Below, piece by piece: positions 1,194 through 10,846 of a stretch of 64,000 bases of DNA. Every line of letters starts with the position of its first letter. Position 1 is the first letter of the stretch. The stretch is taken from NCBI RefSeq assembly GCF_056746865.1, contig NZ_CM163382.1. One strand, given 5' to 3'. The position numbers and the translations under genes were made by a program. The notes under the pieces were generated by a model. That model saw only the letters and a program-made list of their open reading frames with translations. It did not search any database and was not told the DNA's origin.

Positions 1194-2189
1194 TTAAATA
1201 GATCCGCCCGGTGACAAGGTGAAACCTAAATCTAACATTTTCGGTGTCACAGATTCGCCACGAATACGCGCCAGCAGGCGTTCAGCGCCAATACTGCCCA
1301 TCCGCTCACGCGGCGTCAGTACGCTCGCCAACCGTGGTTCCATCACCTGACCAATGTCATGACCATGGAAACCGGCAATCGCCATATCGTCAGGAACTTT
1401 CAACCCCAGACGCTGGCATTCAAACGCCGCGCCGACCGCCAGGTCATCATTAGTACAGAACACGCCATCCAGCTGCGGATATTCCCGCCTCGCCTGGCGA
1501 ATCAGTTCAATACCGGAAGAGTAAGAAGAAGATTGCTCAACCATCACGCTATACGGCACCAGGCCTGCATCCAGCATCGCCTGTTCGTATCCCTTCTGTT
1601 TGATGATAGTACGTTCGTCGAGACGTGCGCCGAGATAGGCAATGTGGCGATGCCCGCGAGCAATAATGGCGGTGGTCATCTGGCGTGCCGCTTCAAAGTT
1701 ATCAAAACCGACGGCAATATCGAGGCACGGCGACTTGCTGTCCATCAACTCCACCACCGGAATCCCCGCCACTTCAATCATCTTTAAGGTGCGTGGCGTG
1801 TGGGTACGTTCGGTGAGGATCAGTCCATCGATATTCCATGAGAGCATTGATTCGAGGCGTTCTTGCTCCATTTCCGGTTTATAACCGTAGTGCGCCAGCA
1901 TAGTTTGATAACCGTGCGCGTCGGTGACGCTTTCGATTCCGCGTAATACTTCCGCGAAAACCTGGTTGGTGAGAGAAGGTAACAGGACGCCAATCGCCCG
2001 GCTGGTGGCATTAGAGAGGATATCGGGCGCGCGATTGGGAATATAACCCAGTTCATCAAGAGCGGCGGCAATCTTGCCGCGTAGAGCGACGGAAACCTGC
2101 TCCGGGTTGCGTAAAAAACGGCTGACCGTCATTTTGGTCACGCCTACACGGTCAGCCACATCCTGAAGTACGGGTCTTTTCTTTTTCAT
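1194..2189 (-). CDS. gntR: LacI-family gluconate repressor GntR
   Basis: 331-aa ORF with an N-terminal HTH (VTKMTVSRFLRN) and a periplasmic-binding-like core; sits in gntRKU order. Confidence 0.9.
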   Translation of the reverse strand: MKKKRPVLQDVADRVGVTKMTVSRFLRNPEQVSVALRGKIAAALDELGYIPNRAPDILSNATSRAIGVLLPSLTNQVFAEVLRGIESVTDAHGYQTMLAHYGYKPEMEQERLESMLSWNIDGLILTERTHTPRTLKMIEVAGIPVVELMDSKSPCLDIAVGFDNFEAARQMTTAIIARGHRHIAYLGARLDERTIIKQKGYEQAMLDAGLVPYSVMVEQSSSYSSGIELIRQARREYPQLDGVFCTNDDLAVGAAFECQRLGLKVPDDMAIAGFHGHDIGQVMEPRLASVLTPRERMGSIGAERLLARIRGESVTPKMLDLGFTLSPGGSI

Positions 2190-2412
2190 CGTCCTGAAGG
2201 TACAAAAGAGATAGATTCTCTTAGTTTAACACGGACGCATCAGAACCTTCCCGGGGAAAACAGTGCTTGTTTACAATTATTAGATATACACTAAATCAAT
2301 TGCATCGCATTGTGCTAACGACGCGGCAAAACCCCGGAAGCGTACATCAGCACGCGACCGGAGCGAGTGAGGAAGCCTGCAAAAAGGCAGGCTTCAAAGA
2401 TGCCGTTGAGTT

Positions 2413-3108
2413 TTAAACCGGCGGCAGATCGAACAGTAACACTTCGCTGTCGCTATCCGCATGAATGGAGATTGCCTGCTCATCCCAGATTGCCAGACCA
2501 TCGCTGGTCGAGGCTTTCACGCCGTTAATGGTGACATTGCCTTTCACCACCTGAATCCAGACGCGGCGTTCAGCGGCAATCTGATGCACCGACTGCTCAT
2601 CTTTTACCAGCGCCCAGCGGTACAGTTCCATATCCTGATACACTTTCAGCGAACCATCACGCGCATCCGGCGAGAGCACCAGCTGTTTGCCCTGTACGGC
2701 ATCGAAGCGACGCTGTTCATAACGCGGCGTAATACCGTTTTCTTCAGGCATGATCCAGATTTGATACAGATGCAGACGCTCGGTGCTGCTTGGGTTGTAC
2801 TCTGAGTGACGAATACCCGTACCCGCACTCATAATCTGGAACTCACCCGCCGGAACCTGCTCTTTATTGCCCATGCTGTCCTGATGCTCAACAGTACCTT
2901 CCAGCACGTAGGTCAAAATTTCCATATCTTTATGCGGGTGAGTGCCGAAGCCCTGCCCTGCTTCAATCACGTCGTCGTTAATCACGCGCAGCGCGGAGAA
3001 GCCCATAAAGTTCGGATCGTAATAGTTGGCAAAAGAGAAAGTATGCCAGGAGTCCAGCCAGCCATGATTTGCATGACCACGTTCATTTGCTTTGCGTAAG
3101 TAGATCAT
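2413..3108 (-). CDS. yhhW: Pirin-like quercetin 2,3-dioxygenase
   Basis: 231-aa ORF with a cupin/pirin signature (GFGTHPHKDMEILTYVLEG); position matches yhhW. Confidence 0.85.
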   Translation of the reverse strand: MIYLRKANERGHANHGWLDSWHTFSFANYYDPNFMGFSALRVINDDVIEAGQGFGTHPHKDMEILTYVLEGTVEHQDSMGNKEQVPAGEFQIMSAGTGIRHSEYNPSSTERLHLYQIWIMPEENGITPRYEQRRFDAVQGKQLVLSPDARDGSLKVYQDMELYRWALVKDEQSVHQIAAERRVWIQVVKGNVTINGVKASTSDGLAIWDEQAISIHADSDSEVLLFDLPPV

Positions 3109-3230
3109 TTTTATTCGCCCCCTGAATGATTTCGATGGGCTTAGTGTGGACCCGATCCGCCTGGGATGATAGAGGGTGAAAATTGACCCCTCTGTTCAAA
3201 AAAATTGAACTATTCGAGGGGCCATCAAAC

Positions 3231-4268
3231 TTACTTCGCGAGAGTCACTGTGGAGGGAGAGGCTTGCTCAAATCCTCGTTCAAGGATTTCCAGATTGGTA
3301 AGAACTTCAGATTCCTTGACGTAATTTGGCGCACCGTTGGTGATGGTTTGATACAACGCATCATAAACGCGCCCGTAATCGCCCATCTCCGGCTTCATCT
3401 CTTCTCTGACCGTCACACCCTCGTCATTGACATACTCCAGCACACCGACCGAATCATCCGCTGCGAATCCCGGTTCGCCCGGCATAATATTGGCCTTGAG
3501 GCTGGTTTCCTGCTGGTCGATACCGTATTTAATAAACGAACCTTTCTTACCGTGAACGATAAATTTCGGATAATCGATTTTCACCAGATGGCTGGTTTTG
3601 ACGATGGCTTTCAGGTCGCCATAAAACAGCTGCGCTTCAAAGGTGTCGTCAGGATTGGCTTTATTACGCAGGCTGCGGATGTCATAAGCGACGTGATCCG
3701 GGCGACCGAACAGAGAAATAATCTGGTCCATCGTATGCACACCAAGACCATAGAACGCGCCATCCTGCGGCAGCCCAGGTTTGGTTTCTGCCACCGGGCG
3801 GTAATAGTCAAAATGGCTTTCCACTTCGACAATCTCTCCAAGCTTGCCGCTTTCAATCGCTTTTTTCGCTGTCAGGAAGCAGGAATCAAAGCGACGATTC
3901 TGATACGGCGTGACGGTCAGCCCTTTGCTTTTCGCCAACGCAAACAGCTCCTTCGCCTGGGCAAGCGTCGGGGTGAACGGTTTTTCGACCAGCACATTTT
4001 TCCCGGCTTCCAGCGCGCGCTTCGCGTACTCGAAGTGGCTGTCTGCATGGGTGCAGACCACAACCAGCTTAACATCGGGATCGTTTAGTACTTCGTCGAG
4101 ATCGCTGGTGAAATGGATATGAGAGTAAATGGGGGCCTGTTCTTCCGGCTTCGCATGGCGGCGAAAAATATGCGCGACATGCCAGCTATCCTTGCGGTTA
4201 AGTACATACGGCAGATGGTAACGGGTGGTGCTTTTGCCGAAGCCAATAAAGGCGCAGTTAATGACCAT
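3231..4268 (-). CDS. yhhX: Gfo/Idh/MocA-family NAD(P)-dependent oxidoreductase
   Basis: 345-aa ORF with an N-terminal Rossmann motif (CAFIGFGKSTTRYH); position matches yhhX. Confidence 0.85.
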   Translation of the reverse strand: MVINCAFIGFGKSTTRYHLPYVLNRKDSWHVAHIFRRHAKPEEQAPIYSHIHFTSDLDEVLNDPDVKLVVVCTHADSHFEYAKRALEAGKNVLVEKPFTPTLAQAKELFALAKSKGLTVTPYQNRRFDSCFLTAKKAIESGKLGEIVEVESHFDYYRPVAETKPGLPQDGAFYGLGVHTMDQIISLFGRPDHVAYDIRSLRNKANPDDTFEAQLFYGDLKAIVKTSHLVKIDYPKFIVHGKKGSFIKYGIDQQETSLKANIMPGEPGFAADDSVGVLEYVNDEGVTVREEMKPEMGDYGRVYDALYQTITNGAPNYVKESEVLTNLEILERGFEQASPSTVTLAK

Positions 4269-4602: not shown

Positions 4603-5091
4603 ATGAGTGAGATAGTGATACGCCATGCTGAAACGCGGGACTACGAGGCCATCAGGCAGATTCACGCCCAGCCGGAGGTGTATTGCAACACGCTACAGGT
4701 GCCTCATCCCTCCGATCATATGTGGCAGGAGCGACTCGCCGATCGCCCCGGCATCAAGCAGTTAGTCGCCTGTATTGATGGAATCGTCGTAGGCCATCTC
4801 ACCATTGACGTGCAACAACGCCCACGCCGCAGTCATGTTGCCGATTTTGGTATCTGTGTCGACTCCCGTTGGAAGAATCGCGGTGTCGCCAGCGCCCTGA
4901 TGCGAGAGATGATTGAAATGTGCGACAACTGGTTGCGGGTAGATCGTATTGAGCTAACGGTGTTCGTCGATAACGCGCCAGCAATTAAGGTCTATAAAAA
5001 ATTTGGATTTGAGATTGAAGGGACTGGCAAGAAGTACGCATTACGTAATGGTGAATATGTCGATGCGTATTATATGGCGCGGGTGAAGTAA
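4603..5091 (+). CDS. yhhY: GNAT-family N-acetyltransferase
   Basis: Internal ATG at 4603 of ORF 4510..5091 gives a 162-aa product (MSEIVIRHAETRDYEAI...) with an acetyl-CoA-binding motif (RWKNRGVASALM). Confidence 0.85.
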   Translation: MSEIVIRHAETRDYEAIRQIHAQPEVYCNTLQVPHPSDHMWQERLADRPGIKQLVACIDGIVVGHLTIDVQQRPRRSHVADFGICVDSRWKNRGVASALMREMIEMCDNWLRVDRIELTVFVDNAPAIKVYKKFGFEIEGTGKKYALRNGEYVDAYYMARVK

Positions 5092-5097
5092 GATAGT

Positions 5098-5123
5098 GCC
5101 CTTTTTCTGAGATGGAAAAAGGG
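5098..5123 (+). terminator. Candidate hairpin terminator after yhhY
   Basis: GCCCTTTTTCTGAGATGGAAAAAGGG forms a perfect 8-bp stem (CCCTTTTT/AAAAAGGG). Confidence 0.35.
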
Positions 5124-5326
5124 TGTCATTCAAAATCGGCATACCTTCCTTTAAGGTATTTATTTTCCCAATAAATATATAAGATTTACCTCATAATTAC
5201 GTCCTAAAGTGTAATATTTTATTTTTTAATATATACGCCTACAATTTCCTGGAGTAAATAAATAACAATTAACAAGCATAATAGTGCCATTGATAAAATA
5301 GCATGCCATAAAAGGACTTTTCATGG

Positions 5327-6439
5327 ATGAGTAATATTGTTTACCTGACAGTAACGGGAGAACAACAAGGAAGCATCTCCGCAGGTTGTGGGACTTCTGA
5401 GTCTACAGGTAATCGCTGGCAGAGCGGGCATGAGGATGAAATATTTACATTCTCACTCTTAAATAGTATTACTAATACGGGGCTTGGTTCACAGTTCCAT
5501 GGTATAACATTTTGTAAATTAATTGATAAAAGCACTCCATTATTTATTAATTCCATTAACAATAATGAACAATTATTTATGGAATTTGACTTCTATCGAA
5601 TAAATAGATTTGGTAGATGGGAAAAGTATTATTATATACAACTAAGAGGCGCTTTTTTATCGGCTATTCATCATCAGATCATTGAAAATCAACTGGATAC
5701 AGAAACATTAACTGTTAGTTATGAATTTATCCTCTGTCAACATCTTATCGCAAATACCGAGTTCAGCTATTTGGCACTCCCTGAAAATTATAACTGTTTG
5801 TTTTTACCAAATTCAAAAAACCAAACAAATAATCGTTTCAAAACGTTAAACAGCAAAGCTATTGGCAGGCTACTTGCTGCTGGTGGCGTATACAATGGGA
5901 ACATTGAAGGATTCAGAGATACTGCGGAAAAACTGGGTGGAGATGCAATAAAAGGCTATGATCAAATACTAAATGAAAAAACAGCGGGCATAGCGATAGC
6001 AACAGCATCTATTCTTTTAACAAAGCGTTCTAATGTTGATACATATACAGAAATAAATAGTTACTTAGGCAAACTTAGAGGTCAACAAAAACTTCTTGAT
6101 GGTATAGACATAATAGAAATAATATACATTAAGAGACCTTCAAAAGACTTAGCTAACTTACGAAAGGAGTTTAATAAAACTGTAAGAAAAAATTTTCTTA
6201 TCAAACTTGCAAAAACCTCCGAAGCATCTGAAAGATTCAACGCCGAAGACCTTTTAAGAATGAGAAAGGGCAATGTTCCTCTAAATTATAATGTTCACCA
6301 TAAACTATCTCTAGATGATGGTGGTACTAATGATTTCGAAAATTTAGTATTAATCGAAAACGAACCATATCATAAAGTTTTTACTAACATGCAATCACGA
6401 ATAGCTAAGGGAGTATTAGTAGGTAGACTGGCCCCCTGA
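5327..6439 (+). CDS. yhhZ: Hcp-family (T6SS tube-like) protein fused to a C-terminal HNH nuclease domain; 3' end replaced by the IS2 insertion
   Basis: N-terminal Hcp-like region followed by an HNH motif (NYNVHHKLSLDDGGTNDFENLVLIENEPYHK). The reading frame runs into the IS2 left end at 6424 and terminates after 4 IS-encoded codons (RLAP). Confidence 0.8.
   Translation: MSNIVYLTVTGEQQGSISAGCGTSESTGNRWQSGHEDEIFTFSLLNSITNTGLGSQFHGITFCKLIDKSTPLFINSINNNEQLFMEFDFYRINRFGRWEKYYYIQLRGAFLSAIHHQIIENQLDTETLTVSYEFILCQHLIANTEFSYLALPENYNCLFLPNSKNQTNNRFKTLNSKAIGRLLAAGGVYNGNIEGFRDTAEKLGGDAIKGYDQILNEKTAGIAIATASILLTKRSNVDTYTEINSYLGKLRGQQKLLDGIDIIEIIYIKRPSKDLANLRKEFNKTVRKNFLIKLAKTSEASERFNAEDLLRMRKGNVPLNYNVHHKLSLDDGGTNDFENLVLIENEPYHKVFTNMQSRIAKGVLVGRLAP
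6419..6423. repeat. 5-bp target-site duplication (GTAGG), left copy
   Basis: GTAGG immediately precedes the IS2 left end and recurs at 7755..7759 immediately after the right end. Confidence 0.85.
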
Positions 6440-6514
6440 ATCTCCAGACAACCAATATCACTTAAATAAGTGATAGTCTTAATACTAGTTTTTAGACTAG
6501 TCATTGGAGAGCAG

Positions 6515-6880
6515 ATGATTGATGTCTTAGGACCGGAGAAACGCAGACGGCGTACTACACAGGAAAAGATCGCTATTGTTCAGCAGAGTTTTGAACCGGG
6601 AATGACGGTCTCCCTTGTTGCCCGGCAACACGGTGTGGCAGCCAGCCAGTTATTTCTCTGGCGCAAGCAATACCAGGAGGGAAGTCTTACTGCTGTGGCC
6701 GCAGGAGAGCAGGTCGTTCCTGCCTCTGAACTTGCTGCTGCCATGAAGCAGATTAAAGAACTCCAGCGCCTGCTCGGCAAAAAAACGATGGAAAATGAAC
6801 TCCTTAAAGAAGCCGTTGAATACGGGCGTGCAAAAAAGTGGATAGCGCACGCGCCCTTATTGCCCGGGGATGGGGAGTAA
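6515..6880 (+). CDS. insC: IS2 OrfA (InsC), HTH transposase subunit
   Basis: [53 protein letters not shown]..., 121 aa from the internal ATG of ORF 6470..6880. Confidence 0.9.
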
Positions 6881-7743
6881 GCTTAGTCAGCCGTTGTCTC
6901 CGGGTGTCGCGTGCGCAGTTGCACGTCATTCTCAGACGAACCGATGACTGGAAAGATGGTCGCCGCAGCCGTCACTCAGATGATACGGATGTGCTTCTCC
7001 GTATACACCATGTTATCGGAGAGCTGCCCACGTATGGTTATCGTCGGGTATGGGCGCTGCTTCGCAGACAGGCCGAACTTGATGGTATGCCTGCGATCAA
7101 TGCCAAACGTGTTTACCGGATCATGCGCCAGAATGCGCTGTTGCTTGAGCGAAAAACCGCTGTACCGCCATCGAAACGGGCACATACTGGCAAAGTGGCC
7201 GTGAAAGAAAGCAATCAACGATGGTGCTCTGACGGGTTCGAGTTCCGCTGTGATAACGGAGAAAAACTGCGAGTCACGTTCGCGCTGGACTGCTGTGACC
7301 GTGAGGCACTGCACTGGGCAGTCACTACGGGCGGCTTCGACAGTGAAACAGTACAGGACGTAATGCTGGGAGCGGTGGAACGCCGCTTCGGCAACGAGCT
7401 TCCGGCGTCTCCAGTAGAGTGGCTGACGGATAATGGTTCATGCTACCGGGCTAATGAAACACGGCAGTTTGCCCGGATGTTGGGGCTTGAACCGAAGAAC
7501 ACGGCGGTGCGGAGTCCGGAGAGTAACGGCATAGCAGAGAGCTTCGTGAAAACGATAAAGCGTGACTACATCAGTATCATGCCTAAACCAGACGGGTTAA
7601 CGGCAGCAAAGAACCTTGCAGAGGCGTTCGAGCATTATAACGAATGGCATCCGCATAGTGCACTGGGTTATCGCTCGCCACGGGAATATCTACGGCAGCG
7701 GGCCAGTAATGGGTTAAGTGATAACAGGTGTCTGGAAATATAG
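6838..7743 (+). CDS. insD: IS2 OrfB (InsD), DDE transposase catalytic subunit, expressed as an OrfAB fusion by -1 frameshift
   Basis: 301-aa ORF overlapping insC in the -1 frame, with an integrase-core-like sequence. Confidence 0.9.
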
Positions 7744-7754
7744 GGGCAAATCCA

Positions 7755-7759
7755 GTAGG
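7755..7759. repeat. 5-bp target-site duplication (GTAGG), right copy
   Basis: Identical to 6419..6423. Confidence 0.85.
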
Positions 7760-7841
7760 TGAAAGCAAAATCACTCCCTGGGCCATTCCATCTGGCTCAA
7801 TTTATCCTCCCATGAAAAATATTATGGAACCCACAAAATGA
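7755..7841 (+). pseudogene. yhhZ: Displaced 3' end of yhhZ (last ~26 codons, ESKITPWAIPSGSIYPPMKNIMEPTK)
   Basis: Joining 6423 to 7760 (removing IS2 and one duplication copy) restores a continuous frame that ends at the TGA at 7839..7841, giving a 392-aa product. Confidence 0.75.
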
Positions 7842-8332
7842 TGACTAAAACCCAAATAAATAAATTAAAAAAAATGATGAATGATTTAGACTATCCATTT
7901 GAAGCACCGCTCAAGGAATCATTTATTGAAAGTATAATCCAAATAGAATTTAATTCTAATTCAACTAATTGCCTGGAGAAATTATGTAATGAAGTTAGTA
8001 TTCTTTTTAATAATCAACCTGATTATCTTAATTTTTTAAGAGCAATGGATGGATTCGAAGTTAATGGATTACGATTATTTAGCCTCTCGATTCCAGAACC
8101 TTCAGTTAAAAACCTTTTTACCGTAAATGAATTTTATAGAAATAATGATGATTTCATAAACCCTGATCTACAAGAACGGTTAGTGATCGGGGATGATAGC
8201 ATTTCAATATTTACTTATGACATTAAAAGTAACTTTTTTGAAATTAGAGATAATATTGGCACCGAAAATATATTCAGTTCGTTTAGTGATTTCTCTTCAT
8301 TCTTAAACGAAATCATGGACAGTTGTTCATAA
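7838..8332 (+). CDS. yrhA: Putative immunity protein for the YhhZ nuclease (SUKH/Smi1-Knr4-like)
   Basis: 164-aa ORF whose ATG overlaps the reconstructed yhhZ stop (ATGA), indicating translational coupling; it carries an ...FLRAMDGFEVNGLRLFSL... motif reminiscent of SUKH immunity proteins. The name is assigned from position. Confidence 0.6.
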   Translation: MMTKTQINKLKKMMNDLDYPFEAPLKESFIESIIQIEFNSNSTNCLEKLCNEVSILFNNQPDYLNFLRAMDGFEVNGLRLFSLSIPEPSVKNLFTVNEFYRNNDDFINPDLQERLVIGDDSISIFTYDIKSNFFEIRDNIGTENIFSSFSDFSSFLNEIMDSCS

Positions 8333-8543
8333 TAATCAAAAGGTAACAAAAATCATTGTAAACCATGCCATCTTTTTAGAGATTACCAGCAGAAAATTCC
8401 TTGTTCGAAACTTAGCAATGCAAGCTATGGAAAAACTTACAACGGAACTACACTCCTTAAGTGAGATGGACCGAAGACATGTAATCTCTATTTTAGCCGA
8501 AATAGCTAATGGCTATGATGATTTTAGTGACATGTTGATTTAG
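8331..8543 (+). pseudogene. Start-less open frame / gene remnant (...LAMQAMEKLTTELHSLSEMDRRHVISILAEIANGYDDFSDMLI)
   Basis: About 70 sense codons are open with the first ATG only at 8418; the frame differs from yrhA and the region is AT-rich. Confidence 0.3.
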
Positions 8544-8566
8544 TTAGAACTTCACCCGAATCATAA

Positions 8567-8746
8567 GATTCTGATATCTTAAATAAGAAAATCCCGTTCG
8601 ACGTTCTGAAAAAGAAATCACAAAATATTAGCAGATACTTATTTCGTGACTGTATATTATCCGATGAACTTTTTTCAAAACCAGCATTTAATAATATATT
8701 TGACGAAGATGAACGCGTCTTTTCTCAAAGTATAACGCAAGAATAA
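8567..8746 (+). pseudogene. Start-less open frame / gene remnant (...FRDCILSDELFSKPAFNNIFDEDERVFSQSITQE)
   Basis: 59 open codons with no in-frame ATG, ending at the TAA at 8744..8746. Confidence 0.3.
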
Positions 8747-8781
8747 TAATATAACGATCAACAATAATATTTATTATAATT

Positions 8782-9066
8782 ATGATTACTTATCACGACG
8801 CATTCGCGAAAGCGAACCATTACCTTGATGATGCAGATCTCGCCGTCGTCATTACTCTACATGGACGCTTTAGCCAGGGCTGGTATTTCTGTTTCGAAGC
8901 ACGAGAATTTCTCGAAACTGGTGATGAGGCCGCGCGTTTATCCGGTAACGCACCTTTTATTATTGATAAAGACAGTGGTGAAATTCATTCCCTTGGAACG
9001 GCAAAGCCGCTGGAAGAATATCTACAGGATTATGAAATAAAAAAGGCTACCTTCGGCTTGCCCTGA
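8782..9066 (+). CDS. yrhB: Small YrhB-family protein
   Basis: 94-aa ORF (MITYHDAFAKANHYLDDADLAVVITLHGRFSQGWYFCFEAREF...) located upstream of ggt as in E. coli. Confidence 0.8.
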   Translation: MITYHDAFAKANHYLDDADLAVVITLHGRFSQGWYFCFEAREFLETGDEAARLSGNAPFIIDKDSGEIHSLGTAKPLEEYLQDYEIKKATFGLP

Positions 9067-9103
9067 CAATACGGCCCTCTTCCCACGAAGAGGGCCGCTA
9101 ACC

Positions 9104-10846
9104 TTAATACCCCGCCGTTAAATCATCCACCGAGCGCGGATCGGATGCACCGTACAGCTCACCGTCCGGCCCAACCATAATGCTTTGTGTACTGCCCATC
9201 GCCTCTTTCAGCGCCACTTTCTGACCTTTTGCTTCCAGCAGCTTGAGCGTATCCGGGCTAAACCCTTTTTCGACACGCAGCTCGTCCGGCAACCATTGAT
9301 GGTGGAAACGCGGTGCATTGGTCGCTTCAGCGACATTCATGCCATAATCGATGCTATTCACCACCATTTGCAGCACGGTGGTAATAATCCGACTCCCGCC
9401 AGGGCTACCGGTAACCAGCCAGGTTTTACCGTCTTTCACCACAATGGTTGGTGACATCGACGACAGCGGGCGTTTGTTCGGCCCGACCGCGTTGGCATCA
9501 CCGCCCACCAGCCCGTAAACGTTCGGTACGCCCGGTTTGGCGGAGAAATCATCCATCTGGTTATTAAGCAGAATACCGCTCTCGCCCGCGACAATGCCCG
9601 TACCGAAGGTGGTGTTCAGCGTATAGGTCACCGCCACCGCGTTGCCGTCTTTATCCACCACTGAGTAATGGGTAGTTTGATTACTCTCATAAGGCGCAAG
9701 CTTGCCGGGGCGAATTTCGCTGGATGGCTTCGCTTTATTGATATCAATTTGATCGGCAATAGATTTGGCATAGGCTTTATTGGTCAGCGCCTGCCACGGG
9801 ACTTTCACAAAATCCGGATCGCCAAGATATTCCGAGCGGTCGGCGTAGGCGTATTTCTCCGCTTCTGCCATGATTTGCATCGCATCGGCGCTGCCAAAGC
9901 CGTATTTCTGCATATCGAAGTTTTCCAGGATATTGAGGATCTGCACGATATGAATCCCACCGGAAGATGGCGGTGGCATCGAGTAAACCTGATACCCGCG
10001 ATATTCGCCGCTAATCGGTGTACGTTCGACCGCTTTATACGCCGCTAAATCTTCTTTAGTGATCAAGCCACCGTTTTTCTGCATCTCCTGAGCGATCTGC
10101 TCCGCTATTGTGCCTTTGTAGAATTCGTCCGGGCCGTTTTCGGCAATCATCTCCAGGCTCTTTGCCAGGTTCGCCTGCACCAGCTTGTCGCCCTTTTTCA
10201 GCGGCGCGCCCTCTTTCCAGAAGATAGCCTTGCTGTTTTCGTGATTCGGCAACACTTCGCTACCGTAGGTTTTGAGATCGTCAGCCAGCGCGTCATTAAC
10301 GATAAAACCATCGCGTGCCAGTTTAAACGCCGGCTGCACCACTTTATTTAACGGCATGGTGCCGTACTTCTCCAGCGCCAGCGAGAAACCTGCGACCGTA
10401 CCTGGCGTACCGGAGGCCAGATGCGAAGTGAGTGATTTTTTGCTGTCCGGGTTGCCCTGGTCATCGAGGAACATATCGCGGGTCGCTTTGGCGGGTGCCA
10501 TTTCGCGGAAATCGATAGCGGTGGTATTGCCATTTTTCGAGCGGATCAGCATAAAACCACCACCGCCCAGATTCCCTGCCTGCGGATGCGTTACCGCCAG
10601 CGCGTAGCCCACAGCCACGGCGGCATCAACGGCATTCCCGCCCTCCTTGAGGATATCCACCCCCACCTGAGTGGCAGTAGCATCTACAGACGCCACCATC
10701 CCCTGTTTCGCGCGTACCGGATGGAAGACATCTTCCTCCACGCCATAAGAAACAGGTGGCGGAGGAGGCGCGGCGGAGGCGCTAAAACAACTTCCTGAGA
10801 GCAGAGCAGCAATGGCCACCCGGCGTAAAAACGTCGGTTTTATCAT
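9104..10846 (-). CDS. ggt: Gamma-glutamyltranspeptidase (periplasmic)
   Basis: Internal start MIKPTFLRRVAIAALLSGSCFSA (signal peptide) gives 580 aa; the catalytic Thr motif (TTHYSVVD) is present. Confidence 0.92.
   Translation of the reverse strand: MIKPTFLRRVAIAALLSGSCFSASAAPPPPPVSYGVEEDVFHPVRAKQGMVASVDATATQVGVDILKEGGNAVDAAVAVGYALAVTHPQAGNLGGGGFMLIRSKNGNTTAIDFREMAPAKATRDMFLDDQGNPDSKKSLTSHLASGTPGTVAGFSLALEKYGTMPLNKVVQPAFKLARDGFIVNDALADDLKTYGSEVLPNHENSKAIFWKEGAPLKKGDKLVQANLAKSLEMIAENGPDEFYKGTIAEQIAQEMQKNGGLITKEDLAAYKAVERTPISGEYRGYQVYSMPPPSSGGIHIVQILNILENFDMQKYGFGSADAMQIMAEAEKYAYADRSEYLGDPDFVKVPWQALTNKAYAKSIADQIDINKAKPSSEIRPGKLAPYESNQTTHYSVVDKDGNAVAVTYTLNTTFGTGIVAGESGILLNNQMDDFSAKPGVPNVYGLVGGDANAVGPNKRPLSSMSPTIVVKDGKTWLVTGSPGGSRIITTVLQMVVNSIDYGMNVAEATNAPRFHHQWLPDELRVEKGFSPDTLKLLEAKGQKVALKEAMGSTQSIMVGPDGELYGASDPRSVDDLTAGY

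What the first reader, a model, noticed from the sequence alone, without database searches (positions are those of the whole stretch)
7838..8332. Intact putative immunity gene (yrhA) translationally coupled to the reconstructed toxin
The yrhA ATG at 7838 overlaps the restored yhhZ stop (ATGA), the classic toxin-immunity arrangement, and the product has an FL...NG...LF motif reminiscent of SUKH immunity proteins. From memory, K-12 carries this gene interrupted by IS1; here it is uninterrupted while the toxin is hit instead, suggesting recurrent IS-mediated inactivation of this module in different lineages.
Basis: partly seen in the sequence, partly recalled or inferred. Interest (0 to 1): 0.45.

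Follow-up and report, generated by a model that had tools for sequence, protein, structure and literature searches.

The report
Known T6SS immunity gene yrhA (ETI1)
This is the ordinary, intact E. coli gene yrhA, which encodes the already-described immunity protein (ETI1) against the neighbouring Hcp-nuclease toxin YhhZ (Hcp-ET1); the only unusual thing in this strain is a private IS2 insertion in the toxin gene.

Summary
yrhA (7838-8332, 164 aa) is intact. Its ATG overlaps, as ATGA, the stop codon of a yhhZ gene that is split by a complete IS2 (6424-7754, 5-bp duplication GTAGG). Removing IS2 in silico gives a 392-aa Hcp-HNH gene with no nucleotide differences from strain 118UI.

It is not new. 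YhhZ/YrhA are the published Hcp-ET1/ETI1 effector-immunity pair (Ma et al. 2017), matched here by locus and by exact identity values. About 69% of complete E. coli genomes carry the module, and 51 of 60 sampled carriers have it intact, so K-12's IS1-broken yrhA is the exception.

"Recurrent IS inactivation" is real but rare. I found at least five independent lesions: IS1 in K-12, IS5 in strain ANT, two IS1-flanked deletions, and this IS2. The IS2 junction occurs in 0 of 5426 genomes.

IS2 removes only the last 26 codons of the toxin and leaves the HNH motif, so inactivation is inferred, not shown. Interest is low.

The parts
5327..6423 (+). yhhZ (hcp-ET1) 5' part, codons 1-366. It contains the Hcp/TssD tube domain (about residues 1-147), a linker, and the toxin domain including the HNH motif VHHKLSLDDGGTN...NLVLIENEPYHK (residues 322-350). 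As it stands, the ORF runs 4 codons into IS2 (RLAP) and stops at 6437-6439.
   Evidence: TIGR03344 VI_effect_Hcp1 E=2.7e-34; Pfam T6SS_HCP 3.8e-11, HNH 0.013; PDB Hcp hits; toxin-domain profile hits the HNH of Cas8f-HNH at E=0.0018 and the pyocin S2 DNase at 0.046; ORF list.
6419..6423 (.). Left copy of the 5-bp target-site duplication GTAGG.
6424..7754 (+). Complete IS2 (1331 bp), with both transposase ORFs open (6470/6516-6880 and 6838-7743) and imperfect terminal inverted repeats. It lies in the same orientation as yhhZ-yrhA.
   Evidence: The junction is absent from all 5426 complete E. coli genomes.
7755..7759 (.). Right copy of the target-site duplication GTAGG.
7760..7841 (+). yhhZ 3' remnant, codons 367-392 (ESKITPWAIPSGSIYPPMKNIMEPTK) plus the TGA stop. 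The first 16 residues are conserved in toxin-domain homologues from other genera.
7838..8332 (+). yrhA (= eti1), intact, 164 aa. It is a SUKH-fold immunity protein, and its ATG overlaps the yhhZ stop (ATGA).
8427..8543 (+). yrhD, shortened here to 38 aa by a premature stop (51 aa in most strains). Function unknown.
   Evidence: Annotated as an incomplete pseudogene in the identical strain 118UI and as 156 bp in 55989, 154 and K-12.
8782..9066 (+). yrhB, 94 aa, Pfam Imm35. It is a second, orphan immunity-type gene at the end of the AT-rich island.
   Evidence: Pfam Imm35 E=5.2e-22. It is retained in genomes that lack yhhZ-yrhA.

Best explanation
yrhA encodes the cognate immunity protein (published name ETI1) of the type VI secretion effector YhhZ/Hcp-ET1, an Hcp tube subunit fused to a C-terminal HNH-type DNase.

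YrhA is a cytoplasmic, single-domain protein with a SUKH (Smi1/Knr4-like) fold. It most likely neutralises the DNase by binding its toxin domain 1:1. That protects the producer from its own toxin and from toxin injected by sibling or competitor E. coli.

In the ancestral arrangement the two genes form one operon. yrhA's ATG overlaps the toxin's stop codon (ATGA), so immunity is made whenever toxin is made.

In this strain a recent, private IS2 insertion cut the toxin gene after codon 366. That removed a conserved 26-residue tail and broke the coupling, while yrhA stayed untouched. The strain has therefore probably become an 'immunity-only' carrier.

Shown here: the anatomy, the orthology, the fold, the conserved toxin-immunity linkage, and the population frequencies.

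Taken from the literature: the DNase toxicity, T6SS2-dependent delivery and neutralisation by ETI1.

Inferred: direct binding, loss of toxin activity after the truncation, and continued expression of yrhA.
For: Anatomy and precise restoration of the toxin gene.

Effector identity: Hcp domain E=2.7e-34; HNH motif and weak HNH/colicin-DNase hits; YhhZ is placed in His-Me finger group 32 (PMC5714182).

Orthology to Hcp-ET1/ETI1: same locus and orientation in STEC 154. The 98.98% and 99.39% identities between 154 and 55989 reproduce the preprint's 99% and 99.4%. The window's YrhA is 159/164 identical to the 55989 protein.

Function in the literature: Hcp-ET1 degrades target DNA, is delivered by T6SS2, and was 'characterized together with' its immunity protein (PMC6099711; PMC6730261).

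Cassette behaviour: in Leclercia and in two metagenome contigs, a YrhA homologue directly follows a protein that shares YhhZ residues 172-382 but has a non-Hcp N-terminus. Toxin and immunity identities fall together: 69/61%, 53/49%, 49/26%.

Conservation: the module is present in 3765 of 5426 complete genomes.
Against: I could not read the primary paper (Ma et al. 2017 is not held). The experimental claim of protection is therefore second-hand, from two reviews and a preprint.

Pfam-A, the PDB sequence search and PADLOC give nothing for YrhA itself.

No toxin-immunity complex was modelled, and the toxin-domain model failed (pLDDT 39.7). The binding mode is inferred only by analogy.

Expression of yrhA after IS2 is unknown. 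Coupling is lost, the only Shine-Dalgarno-like element is a weak GGA 9 nt upstream, and the promoter scan is at background (12 found against 11.5 expected).

K-12 tolerates an intact yhhZ with an IS1-broken yrhA. So immunity is not always needed for viability, probably because the AT-rich island is poorly expressed and K-12 lacks a T6SS. That explanation is my inference.
Confidence: 0.85

Rival explanations
1. In this strain yrhA is a silent relic. The IS2 insertion is polar and removes translational coupling, so the gene is intact in sequence only because the insertion is too recent for decay. It gives no protection.
For: Ribosomes translating yhhZ now stop at 6437-6439, 1.4 kb upstream. There is only a weak SD-like GGA before the ATG. 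No above-background promoter lies between IS2 and yrhA. The sequence has 0 nucleotide differences from the uninterrupted relative 118UI, so the insertion is very recent and intactness says nothing about selection.
Against: The transposase ORF runs in the same direction and ends 95 nt before yrhA, so read-through transcription is possible. In other genera the homologous immunity genes start 10-17 nt after the toxin stop with their own SD, so the family does not depend on overlap coupling. Strain ANT also keeps yrhA intact behind an IS5-broken toxin.
Confidence: 0.2
2. The toxin is not inactivated. The 370-aa product (366 native residues plus RLAP) keeps the Hcp domain and the full HNH motif and is still a DNase. 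yrhA would then be retained because the cell is still 'addicted' to it.
For: The insertion lies after codon 366, downstream of the HH...N...N...H motif at residues 322-350.
Against: The lost segment ESKITPWAIPSGSIYP is conserved at 49-69% overall identity across genera, which suggests it is structurally needed. The 10 residues after it are E. coli-specific.
Confidence: 0.2
3. YrhA is a SUKH-fold protein with a housekeeping or regulatory role (as for yeast Smi1/Knr4 or E. coli Syd), and its position after yhhZ is incidental.
For: The SUKH superfamily includes non-immunity members, namely Syd and Knr4.
Against: The linkage to the same toxin domain is conserved across different N-terminal delivery domains and genera, with co-varying divergence. 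The gene is absent from about 30% of E. coli genomes together with the toxin. It lies in an AT-rich island. The literature assigns it immunity.
Confidence: 0.03

Closest known systems
Hcp-ET1 / ETI1 effector-immunity pair of E. coli (Ma et al. 2017, Virulence 8:1189; strains STEC004, C227-11, 55989)
   Same: Same chromosomal locus (yhhY-[yhhZ-yrhA-yrhD-yrhB]-ggt). The restored YhhZ is 380/392 identical and YrhA 159/164 identical to the 55989 proteins. The 4-bp start/stop overlap is the same.
   Different: Here the effector gene is split by IS2 after codon 366. There are five amino-acid substitutions in the immunity protein (K11I, D16N, N58K, N65T, T95A relative to 55989).
SUKH superfamily immunity proteins (Zhang, Iyer & Aravind 2011), e.g. 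B. subtilis YobK (2PRV), Lin2918 (2ICG), and RhsPI, a SMI1/KNR4 immunity protein solved in complex with a WHH toxin (8BD1)
   Different: YrhA is too divergent for the Pfam SUKH models to detect directly. It has an extra N-terminal helical segment (residues 1-59) compared with the roughly 130-150-aa SUKH-1 proteins. Its partner toxin is delivered as an Hcp fusion, which the 2011 survey did not describe.
E. coli K-12 yhhZ-yrhA'::IS1E
   Same: Same module, and an insertion sequence in a toxin-immunity operon.
   Different: In K-12, IS1 sits in the immunity gene (window-equivalent 8219-8227, 9-bp duplication) and the toxin gene is intact. Here IS2 sits in the toxin gene and the immunity gene is intact.
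Colicin E7/E9 DNase with Im7/Im9
   Same: An HNH (His-Me finger) DNase toxin neutralised by a small immunity protein encoded immediately downstream. There are weak profile matches of the toxin to the Col-Pyo DNase model and to pyocin S2.
   Different: The immunity fold is unrelated (a four-helix Im protein against a SUKH alpha+beta fold). Delivery is by T6SS Hcp fusion rather than receptor-mediated import.

Membership tests
YrhA family (NCBIfam NF038335, YPO0640_fam) | Whole-protein score above the curated cutoff of 55 bits. | tested here: met
   127.9 bits, E=2.8e-37, covering residues 4-163 and profile positions 2-149 of 150.
ETI1 (cognate immunity of Hcp-ET1) | Orthologous in sequence to the ETI1 of E. 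coli 55989 / C227-11. | tested here: met
   159/164 identical to the 55989 yhhZ-locus protein. That protein is equated with ETI1 because the 154-vs-55989 identities (98.98% and 99.39%) equal the published 99% and 99.4%.
ETI1 (cognate immunity of Hcp-ET1) | Encoded immediately downstream of, and co-oriented with, hcp-ET1. | tested here: met
   There is an ATGA overlap with the restored yhhZ stop. The same overlap is annotated in four other strains.
ETI1 (cognate immunity of Hcp-ET1) | Neutralises Hcp-ET1 toxicity, or protects against T6SS2-delivered Hcp-ET1. | not testable with these tools
   Reported second-hand in PMC6099711, PMC6730261 and 10.1101/2024.03.05.583533. The primary paper is not held.
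SUKH superfamily (Smi1/Knr4, Syd, US22) | Three-dimensional fold shared with the reference structures 2PRV, 2ICG, 2PAG, 3D5P and 3FFV. | tested here: met
SUKH superfamily (Smi1/Knr4, Syd, US22) | Direct match of the protein to a Pfam SUKH model (SMI1_KNR4, SUKH_5, SUKH_6 and others). | tested here: not met
   No SUKH model appears among the hits even at E<=10 for YrhA itself.
SUKH superfamily (Smi1/Knr4, Syd, US22) | Transitive or profile-level sequence homology to SUKH members. | tested here: met
   Of 42 phmmer homologues (whole-library E<=1e-3), 11 hit SMI1_KNR4, 8 hit SUKH_6 and 7 hit SUKH_5 at E<=1e-3. The family profile hits 2ICG at E=4.3e-4 across the conserved motif. Some sources already name members 'SMI1/KNR4 family protein'.
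Polymorphic toxin / immunity cassette (Zhang et al. 2012) | The same C-terminal toxin domain is found on different N-terminal delivery domains, each followed by a related immunity gene. | tested here: met
   YhhZ residues 172-382 recur at 69%, 53% and 49% identity on non-Hcp N-termini (DUF8093 in Leclercia; another next to TraG_N). Each is followed by a YrhA homologue of 61%, 49% and 26% identity. A 44% homologue lies in the immunity array of a DUF8093-Ntox30 toxin. The sample is small: six neighbourhoods.
HNH / His-Me finger nuclease (partner toxin) | A beta-beta-alpha-metal motif with conserved HH...N...N/H residues. | tested here: inconclusive
   The motif VHHK[LI].LDDGGTN..NL.LI.N.PYH is conserved in 5 of 6 aligned sequences. 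Pfam HNH is only E=0.013. The profile against the Cas8f-HNH fusion gives E=0.0018. The structure model is unusable (pLDDT 39.7). The literature classifies YhhZ as His-Me group 32.

The most novel reading that the evidence does not exclude
The IS2 insertion has produced a functional 'immunity-only cheater'. The strain no longer pays for, or risks, the Hcp-ET1 DNase, but still expresses YrhA, now uncoupled and perhaps driven by read-through from IS2. It would stay resistant to Hcp-ET1-armed E. coli, which are the majority. Alternatively, the 366-residue truncated toxin is still active and keeps the cell addicted to yrhA. Either way, insertion sequences would be acting as a recurrent switch between armed, disarmed-immune and fully susceptible states of one T6SS module within a species.
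Probability: 0.25. Interest if true: 0.3.

Novelty: already known. Interest (0 to 1): 0.12.

Why it matters
It matters little beyond annotation. The result links the K-12 gene names (yhhZ, yrhA) to the T6SS literature names (Hcp-ET1, ETI1). It places the YrhA family, which has no Pfam entry of its own, in the SUKH superfamily on fold evidence. It also shows that the toxin domain and its immunity gene travel as a cassette on non-Hcp carriers in other Enterobacteriaceae. The IS lesions (IS1, IS2, IS5 and IS1-flanked deletions) give a small natural series of armed, disarmed and susceptible genotypes that could be used to study the cost and benefit of an orphan Hcp effector. None of this would surprise a specialist.

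Tried and rejected
These attempts gave nothing useful:

- Pfam-A on YrhA alone gave only noise (Importin_rep_2, NPC1_N, E about 0.1).
- phmmer of YrhA against PDB sequences gave only spurious antibody heavy-chain hits (E>=0.04).
- PADLOC gave no hits for YhhZ, YrhA, YrhD or YrhB, so this is not a listed phage-defence system.
- The promoter and terminator scan of 5090-9110 was at background (12 found against 11.5 expected; 2 against 3.6). It says nothing about yrhA expression after IS2.
- The AF2 model of the toxin C-terminal domain, built from a 6-sequence alignment, had pLDDT 39.7 and was unusable. It was not taken to a fold search.
- The primary paper, Ma et al. 2017, could not be obtained by DOI or PMC id.
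- Two neighbourhoods were uninformative. In L013 the partner is a degenerate, G/R-rich homologue (21% identity, HNH motif lost) on a 1.6-kb contig. In L014 (P0162) no recognisable toxin lies upstream.

Two ideas were considered and rejected:

- A type II toxin-antitoxin module. The toxin carries a secretion (Hcp) domain, the protective gene lies downstream, and its fold is SUKH.
- The Met-to-Cys conversion function given for 'yhhZ-yrhAB' in PMC3309015. This is a name collision with the unrelated B. subtilis yrhA/yrhB.

Full report
**1. What is in the sequence**

The window is the E. coli chromosomal region yhhW-yhhX-yhhY-[yhhZ-yrhA-yrhD-yrhB]-ggt-yhhA-ugpQ.

With the local composition (28% GC), a 164-codon open frame has a chance of about 3e-6.

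Upstream, an Hcp-family gene starts at 5327 and is interrupted by a complete 1331-bp IS2. IS2 occupies 6424-7754, has both transposase frames open, and is flanked by a 5-bp duplication, GTAGG, at 6419-6423 and 7755-7759.

Joining 5327-6423 to 7760-7841 gives a 1179-bp, 392-aa gene. Its TGA (7839-7841) overlaps the yrhA ATG (7838) as ATGA.

The restored gene and yrhA both have zero nucleotide differences from the uninterrupted genes of E. coli 118UI. RefSeq annotates the same 4-bp overlap in strains 154, 55989, 118UI and MG1655.

**2. What the two genes are**

The restored YhhZ has an N-terminal T6SS tube (Hcp/TssD) domain: TIGR03344 E=2.7e-34, Pfam T6SS_HCP 3.8e-11, and PDB Hcp hits.

It also has a C-terminal domain with the motif VHHKLSLDDGGTN..NLVLIENEPYHK. 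That domain gives weak HNH and colicin/pyocin-DNase matches (Pfam HNH 0.013). A profile of the domain hits the HNH of Cas8f-HNH fusions at E=0.0018 and pyocin S2 at 0.046. Jablonska et al. place YhhZ in His-Me finger group 32 (PMC5714182).

YrhA matches the NCBIfam 'YrhA family' model far above its cutoff (127.9 against 55 bits). It has no Pfam-A hit of its own.

**3. It is the published Hcp-ET1/ETI1 pair**

[quoted passage not shown] They call it Hcp-ET1, report that it is delivered by T6SS2, and report an immunity protein, ETI1, encoded directly downstream (Ma et al. 2017, cited in PMC6730261, PMC6099711 and 10.1101/2024.03.05.583533). The primary paper is not in the held library.

I tied the names together as follows. 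The preprint states that Ec154_00381 and Ec154_00380 of STEC O22:H8 strain 154 are 99% and 99.4% identical to Hcp-ET1 and ETI1 of strain 55989.

I fetched the yhhZ-yrhA locus of both genomes. The YhhZ proteins are 98.98% identical and the YrhA proteins 99.39% identical, which is 1 difference in 164. Gene order, strand and approximate gene index also fit.

So YhhZ = Hcp-ET1 and YrhA = ETI1. The window's YrhA is 159/164 identical to the 55989 protein, and its restored YhhZ is 380/392 identical.

**4. Is YrhA a SUKH protein?**

- *Homologues.* A phmmer scan of 1.84 billion representatives found 72 relatives. In an alignment of 42 full-length ones, Y63, G72, G77, N97 and D138 are nearly invariant, and the consensus DYxxFLxxMDGFExNGxxLY is the classical Smi1/Knr4 motif.
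- *Pfam on the homologues.* Scanned individually, 11 of the 42 hit SMI1_KNR4 (SUKH-1), 8 hit SUKH_6 and 7 hit SUKH_5 at E<=1e-3.
- *PDB by profile.* The family profile hits PDB 2ICG (Lin2918) at E=4.3e-4.
- *Fold.* An AlphaFold2 model built on this alignment is confident (pLDDT 90.9, pTM 0.87). Its best Foldseek hits are 2PRV (YobK), 2ICG, 3D5P, 2PAG and 3FFV (Syd). These are exactly the five structures Zhang, Iyer & Aravind used to define the SUKH superfamily.

The one defining feature that failed is a direct Pfam SUKH hit. YrhA is therefore a divergent SUKH-fold family rather than a member of an existing Pfam SUKH family. Some UniRef names already say 'SMI1/KNR4 family protein'.

**5. Independent comparative evidence for immunity**

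In Leclercia, a 61%-identical YrhA homologue lies 17 nt downstream of a 379-aa protein. The N-terminus of that protein is DUF8093, not Hcp. Its last 212 residues are 69% identical to YhhZ residues 172-382.

On a metagenome contig, the pair is 53% (toxin domain) and 49% (immunity) identical to the window's. On another contig, next to a TraG_N gene, the figures are 49% and 26%.

A 44% homologue sits in the immunity-gene array behind a DUF8093-Ntox30 toxin.

So the toxin domain and the YrhA-type gene move together as a cassette on different delivery domains and diverge together. That is the signature of a polymorphic toxin with a cognate immunity protein.

The exact ATGA overlap is specific to E. 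coli, where the toxin carries a 10-residue extension. Elsewhere the immunity gene has its own Shine-Dalgarno sequence 10-17 nt after the stop.

**6. How common is the intact state, and how recurrent are IS hits?**

The yhhZ+yrhA query covers at least 80% in 3765 of 5426 complete E. coli genomes.

In an evenly spread sample of 60 hits:
- 51 have both genes uninterrupted.
- 8 are K-12-type, with IS1 in yrhA. These are laboratory K-12 derivatives, so they represent one event.
- 1 (strain ANT) has IS5 in yhhZ with a 195-bp deletion.

The breakpoints, in window coordinates, are:

| Strain | Lesion |
|---|---|
| K-12 | IS1 at 8219-8227, with a 9-bp duplication |
| 1008S19 | IS1 replaces 5169-8274 |
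| ET846 | IS1 replaces 5174-9038 |
| AR24.2b | lacks 5090-8765, with no IS |

The window's own IS2 junction is found in none of the 5426 genomes.

The module is thus an AT-rich island (29-37% GC against 52-55% in the flanks) that has suffered at least five independent IS-associated lesions. Each is rare, and an intact yrhA is the rule.

**7. What the IS2 insertion does**

The interrupted ORF now encodes residues 1-366 plus RLAP.

It keeps the Hcp domain and the whole HNH motif (residues 322-350). It loses ESKITPWAIPSGSIYP, a segment conserved in all good homologues, plus the 10-residue tail.

Loss of toxin activity is therefore likely but only inferred.

Translational coupling to yrhA is gone, and whether yrhA is still expressed cannot be told from sequence. 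There is a weak GGA 9 nt upstream, the IS2 transposase frame ends 95 nt upstream in the same orientation, and the promoter scan is at background.

**8. Verdict**

However, the object is a known, experimentally described effector-immunity pair in its commonest state, apart from a private IS2 in the toxin gene.

The novelty class is 'already known', and interest is low.

Three modest additions come from this work: the explicit link of yhhZ/yrhA to Hcp-ET1/ETI1, fold-level placement of the YrhA family in SUKH, and the finding that the toxin-immunity cassette occurs on non-Hcp carriers.

Noticed in passing
window 8782-9066 (yrhB): YrhB is a clear Pfam Imm35 immunity protein (E=5.2e-22). Zhang et al. 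2012 link Imm35 to papain-like Tox-PL1 toxins, not to HNH. It is retained even in genomes that lack yhhZ-yrhA-yrhD, for example AR24.2b. It looks like an orphan immunity gene against a different effector, possibly the papain-like Hcp-ET5 class.
   Followed up: partly
window 8427-8543 (yrhD): yrhD ends early here, at 38 aa instead of 51. The identical strain 118UI has it flagged as an incomplete pseudogene. Function unknown, and no family hit.
   Followed up: partly
window 6424-7754: This is a complete IS2 with a GTAGG duplication. The yhhZ::IS2 junction is absent from all 5426 complete RefSeq E. coli genomes, while the flanks are 100% identical to strain 118UI. The insertion is therefore very recent or strain-private.
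   Followed up: yes
L017 (K-12 MG1655), locus 1729-4046: K-12 has the opposite genotype: an intact 392-aa toxin gene with the immunity gene cut by IS1 after about codon 130. How K-12 tolerates this is not addressed here. Possible explanations are silencing of the AT-rich island, lack of a T6SS, or residual function of the 138-aa fragment.
   Followed up: no
L009 2845-3984 (Leclercia); L016 316-1485: A DUF8093 N-terminal domain carries either the YhhZ-type HNH toxin domain or Ntox30. It therefore behaves as an uncharacterised delivery or trafficking domain of polymorphic toxins. In L009 it lies beside a two-partner-secretion (CdiA-like) toxin with Imm63 and Imm70 genes.
   Followed up: no
window 5327-8332 versus L008 (55989): Codon differences between the window and 55989 alleles are mostly non-synonymous: yrhA 5 non-synonymous to 2 synonymous, yhhZ 12 to 3. 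The numbers are too small to test, but they are compatible with diversifying or relaxed selection on the pair.
   Followed up: partly
literature: PMC3309015: A 2012 genomic-island paper assigns 'conversion of methionine to cysteine' to the E. coli yhhZ-yrhAB cluster. This appears to confuse it with the unrelated B. subtilis yrhA/yrhB genes, a name-collision error.
   Followed up: partly
window 5090-9070: The whole yhhZ-yrhA-yrhD-yrhB block is an AT-rich island (29-37% GC) between flanks of 52-55% GC. It is absent, in part or in full, from roughly 30% of complete E. coli genomes.
   Followed up: partly
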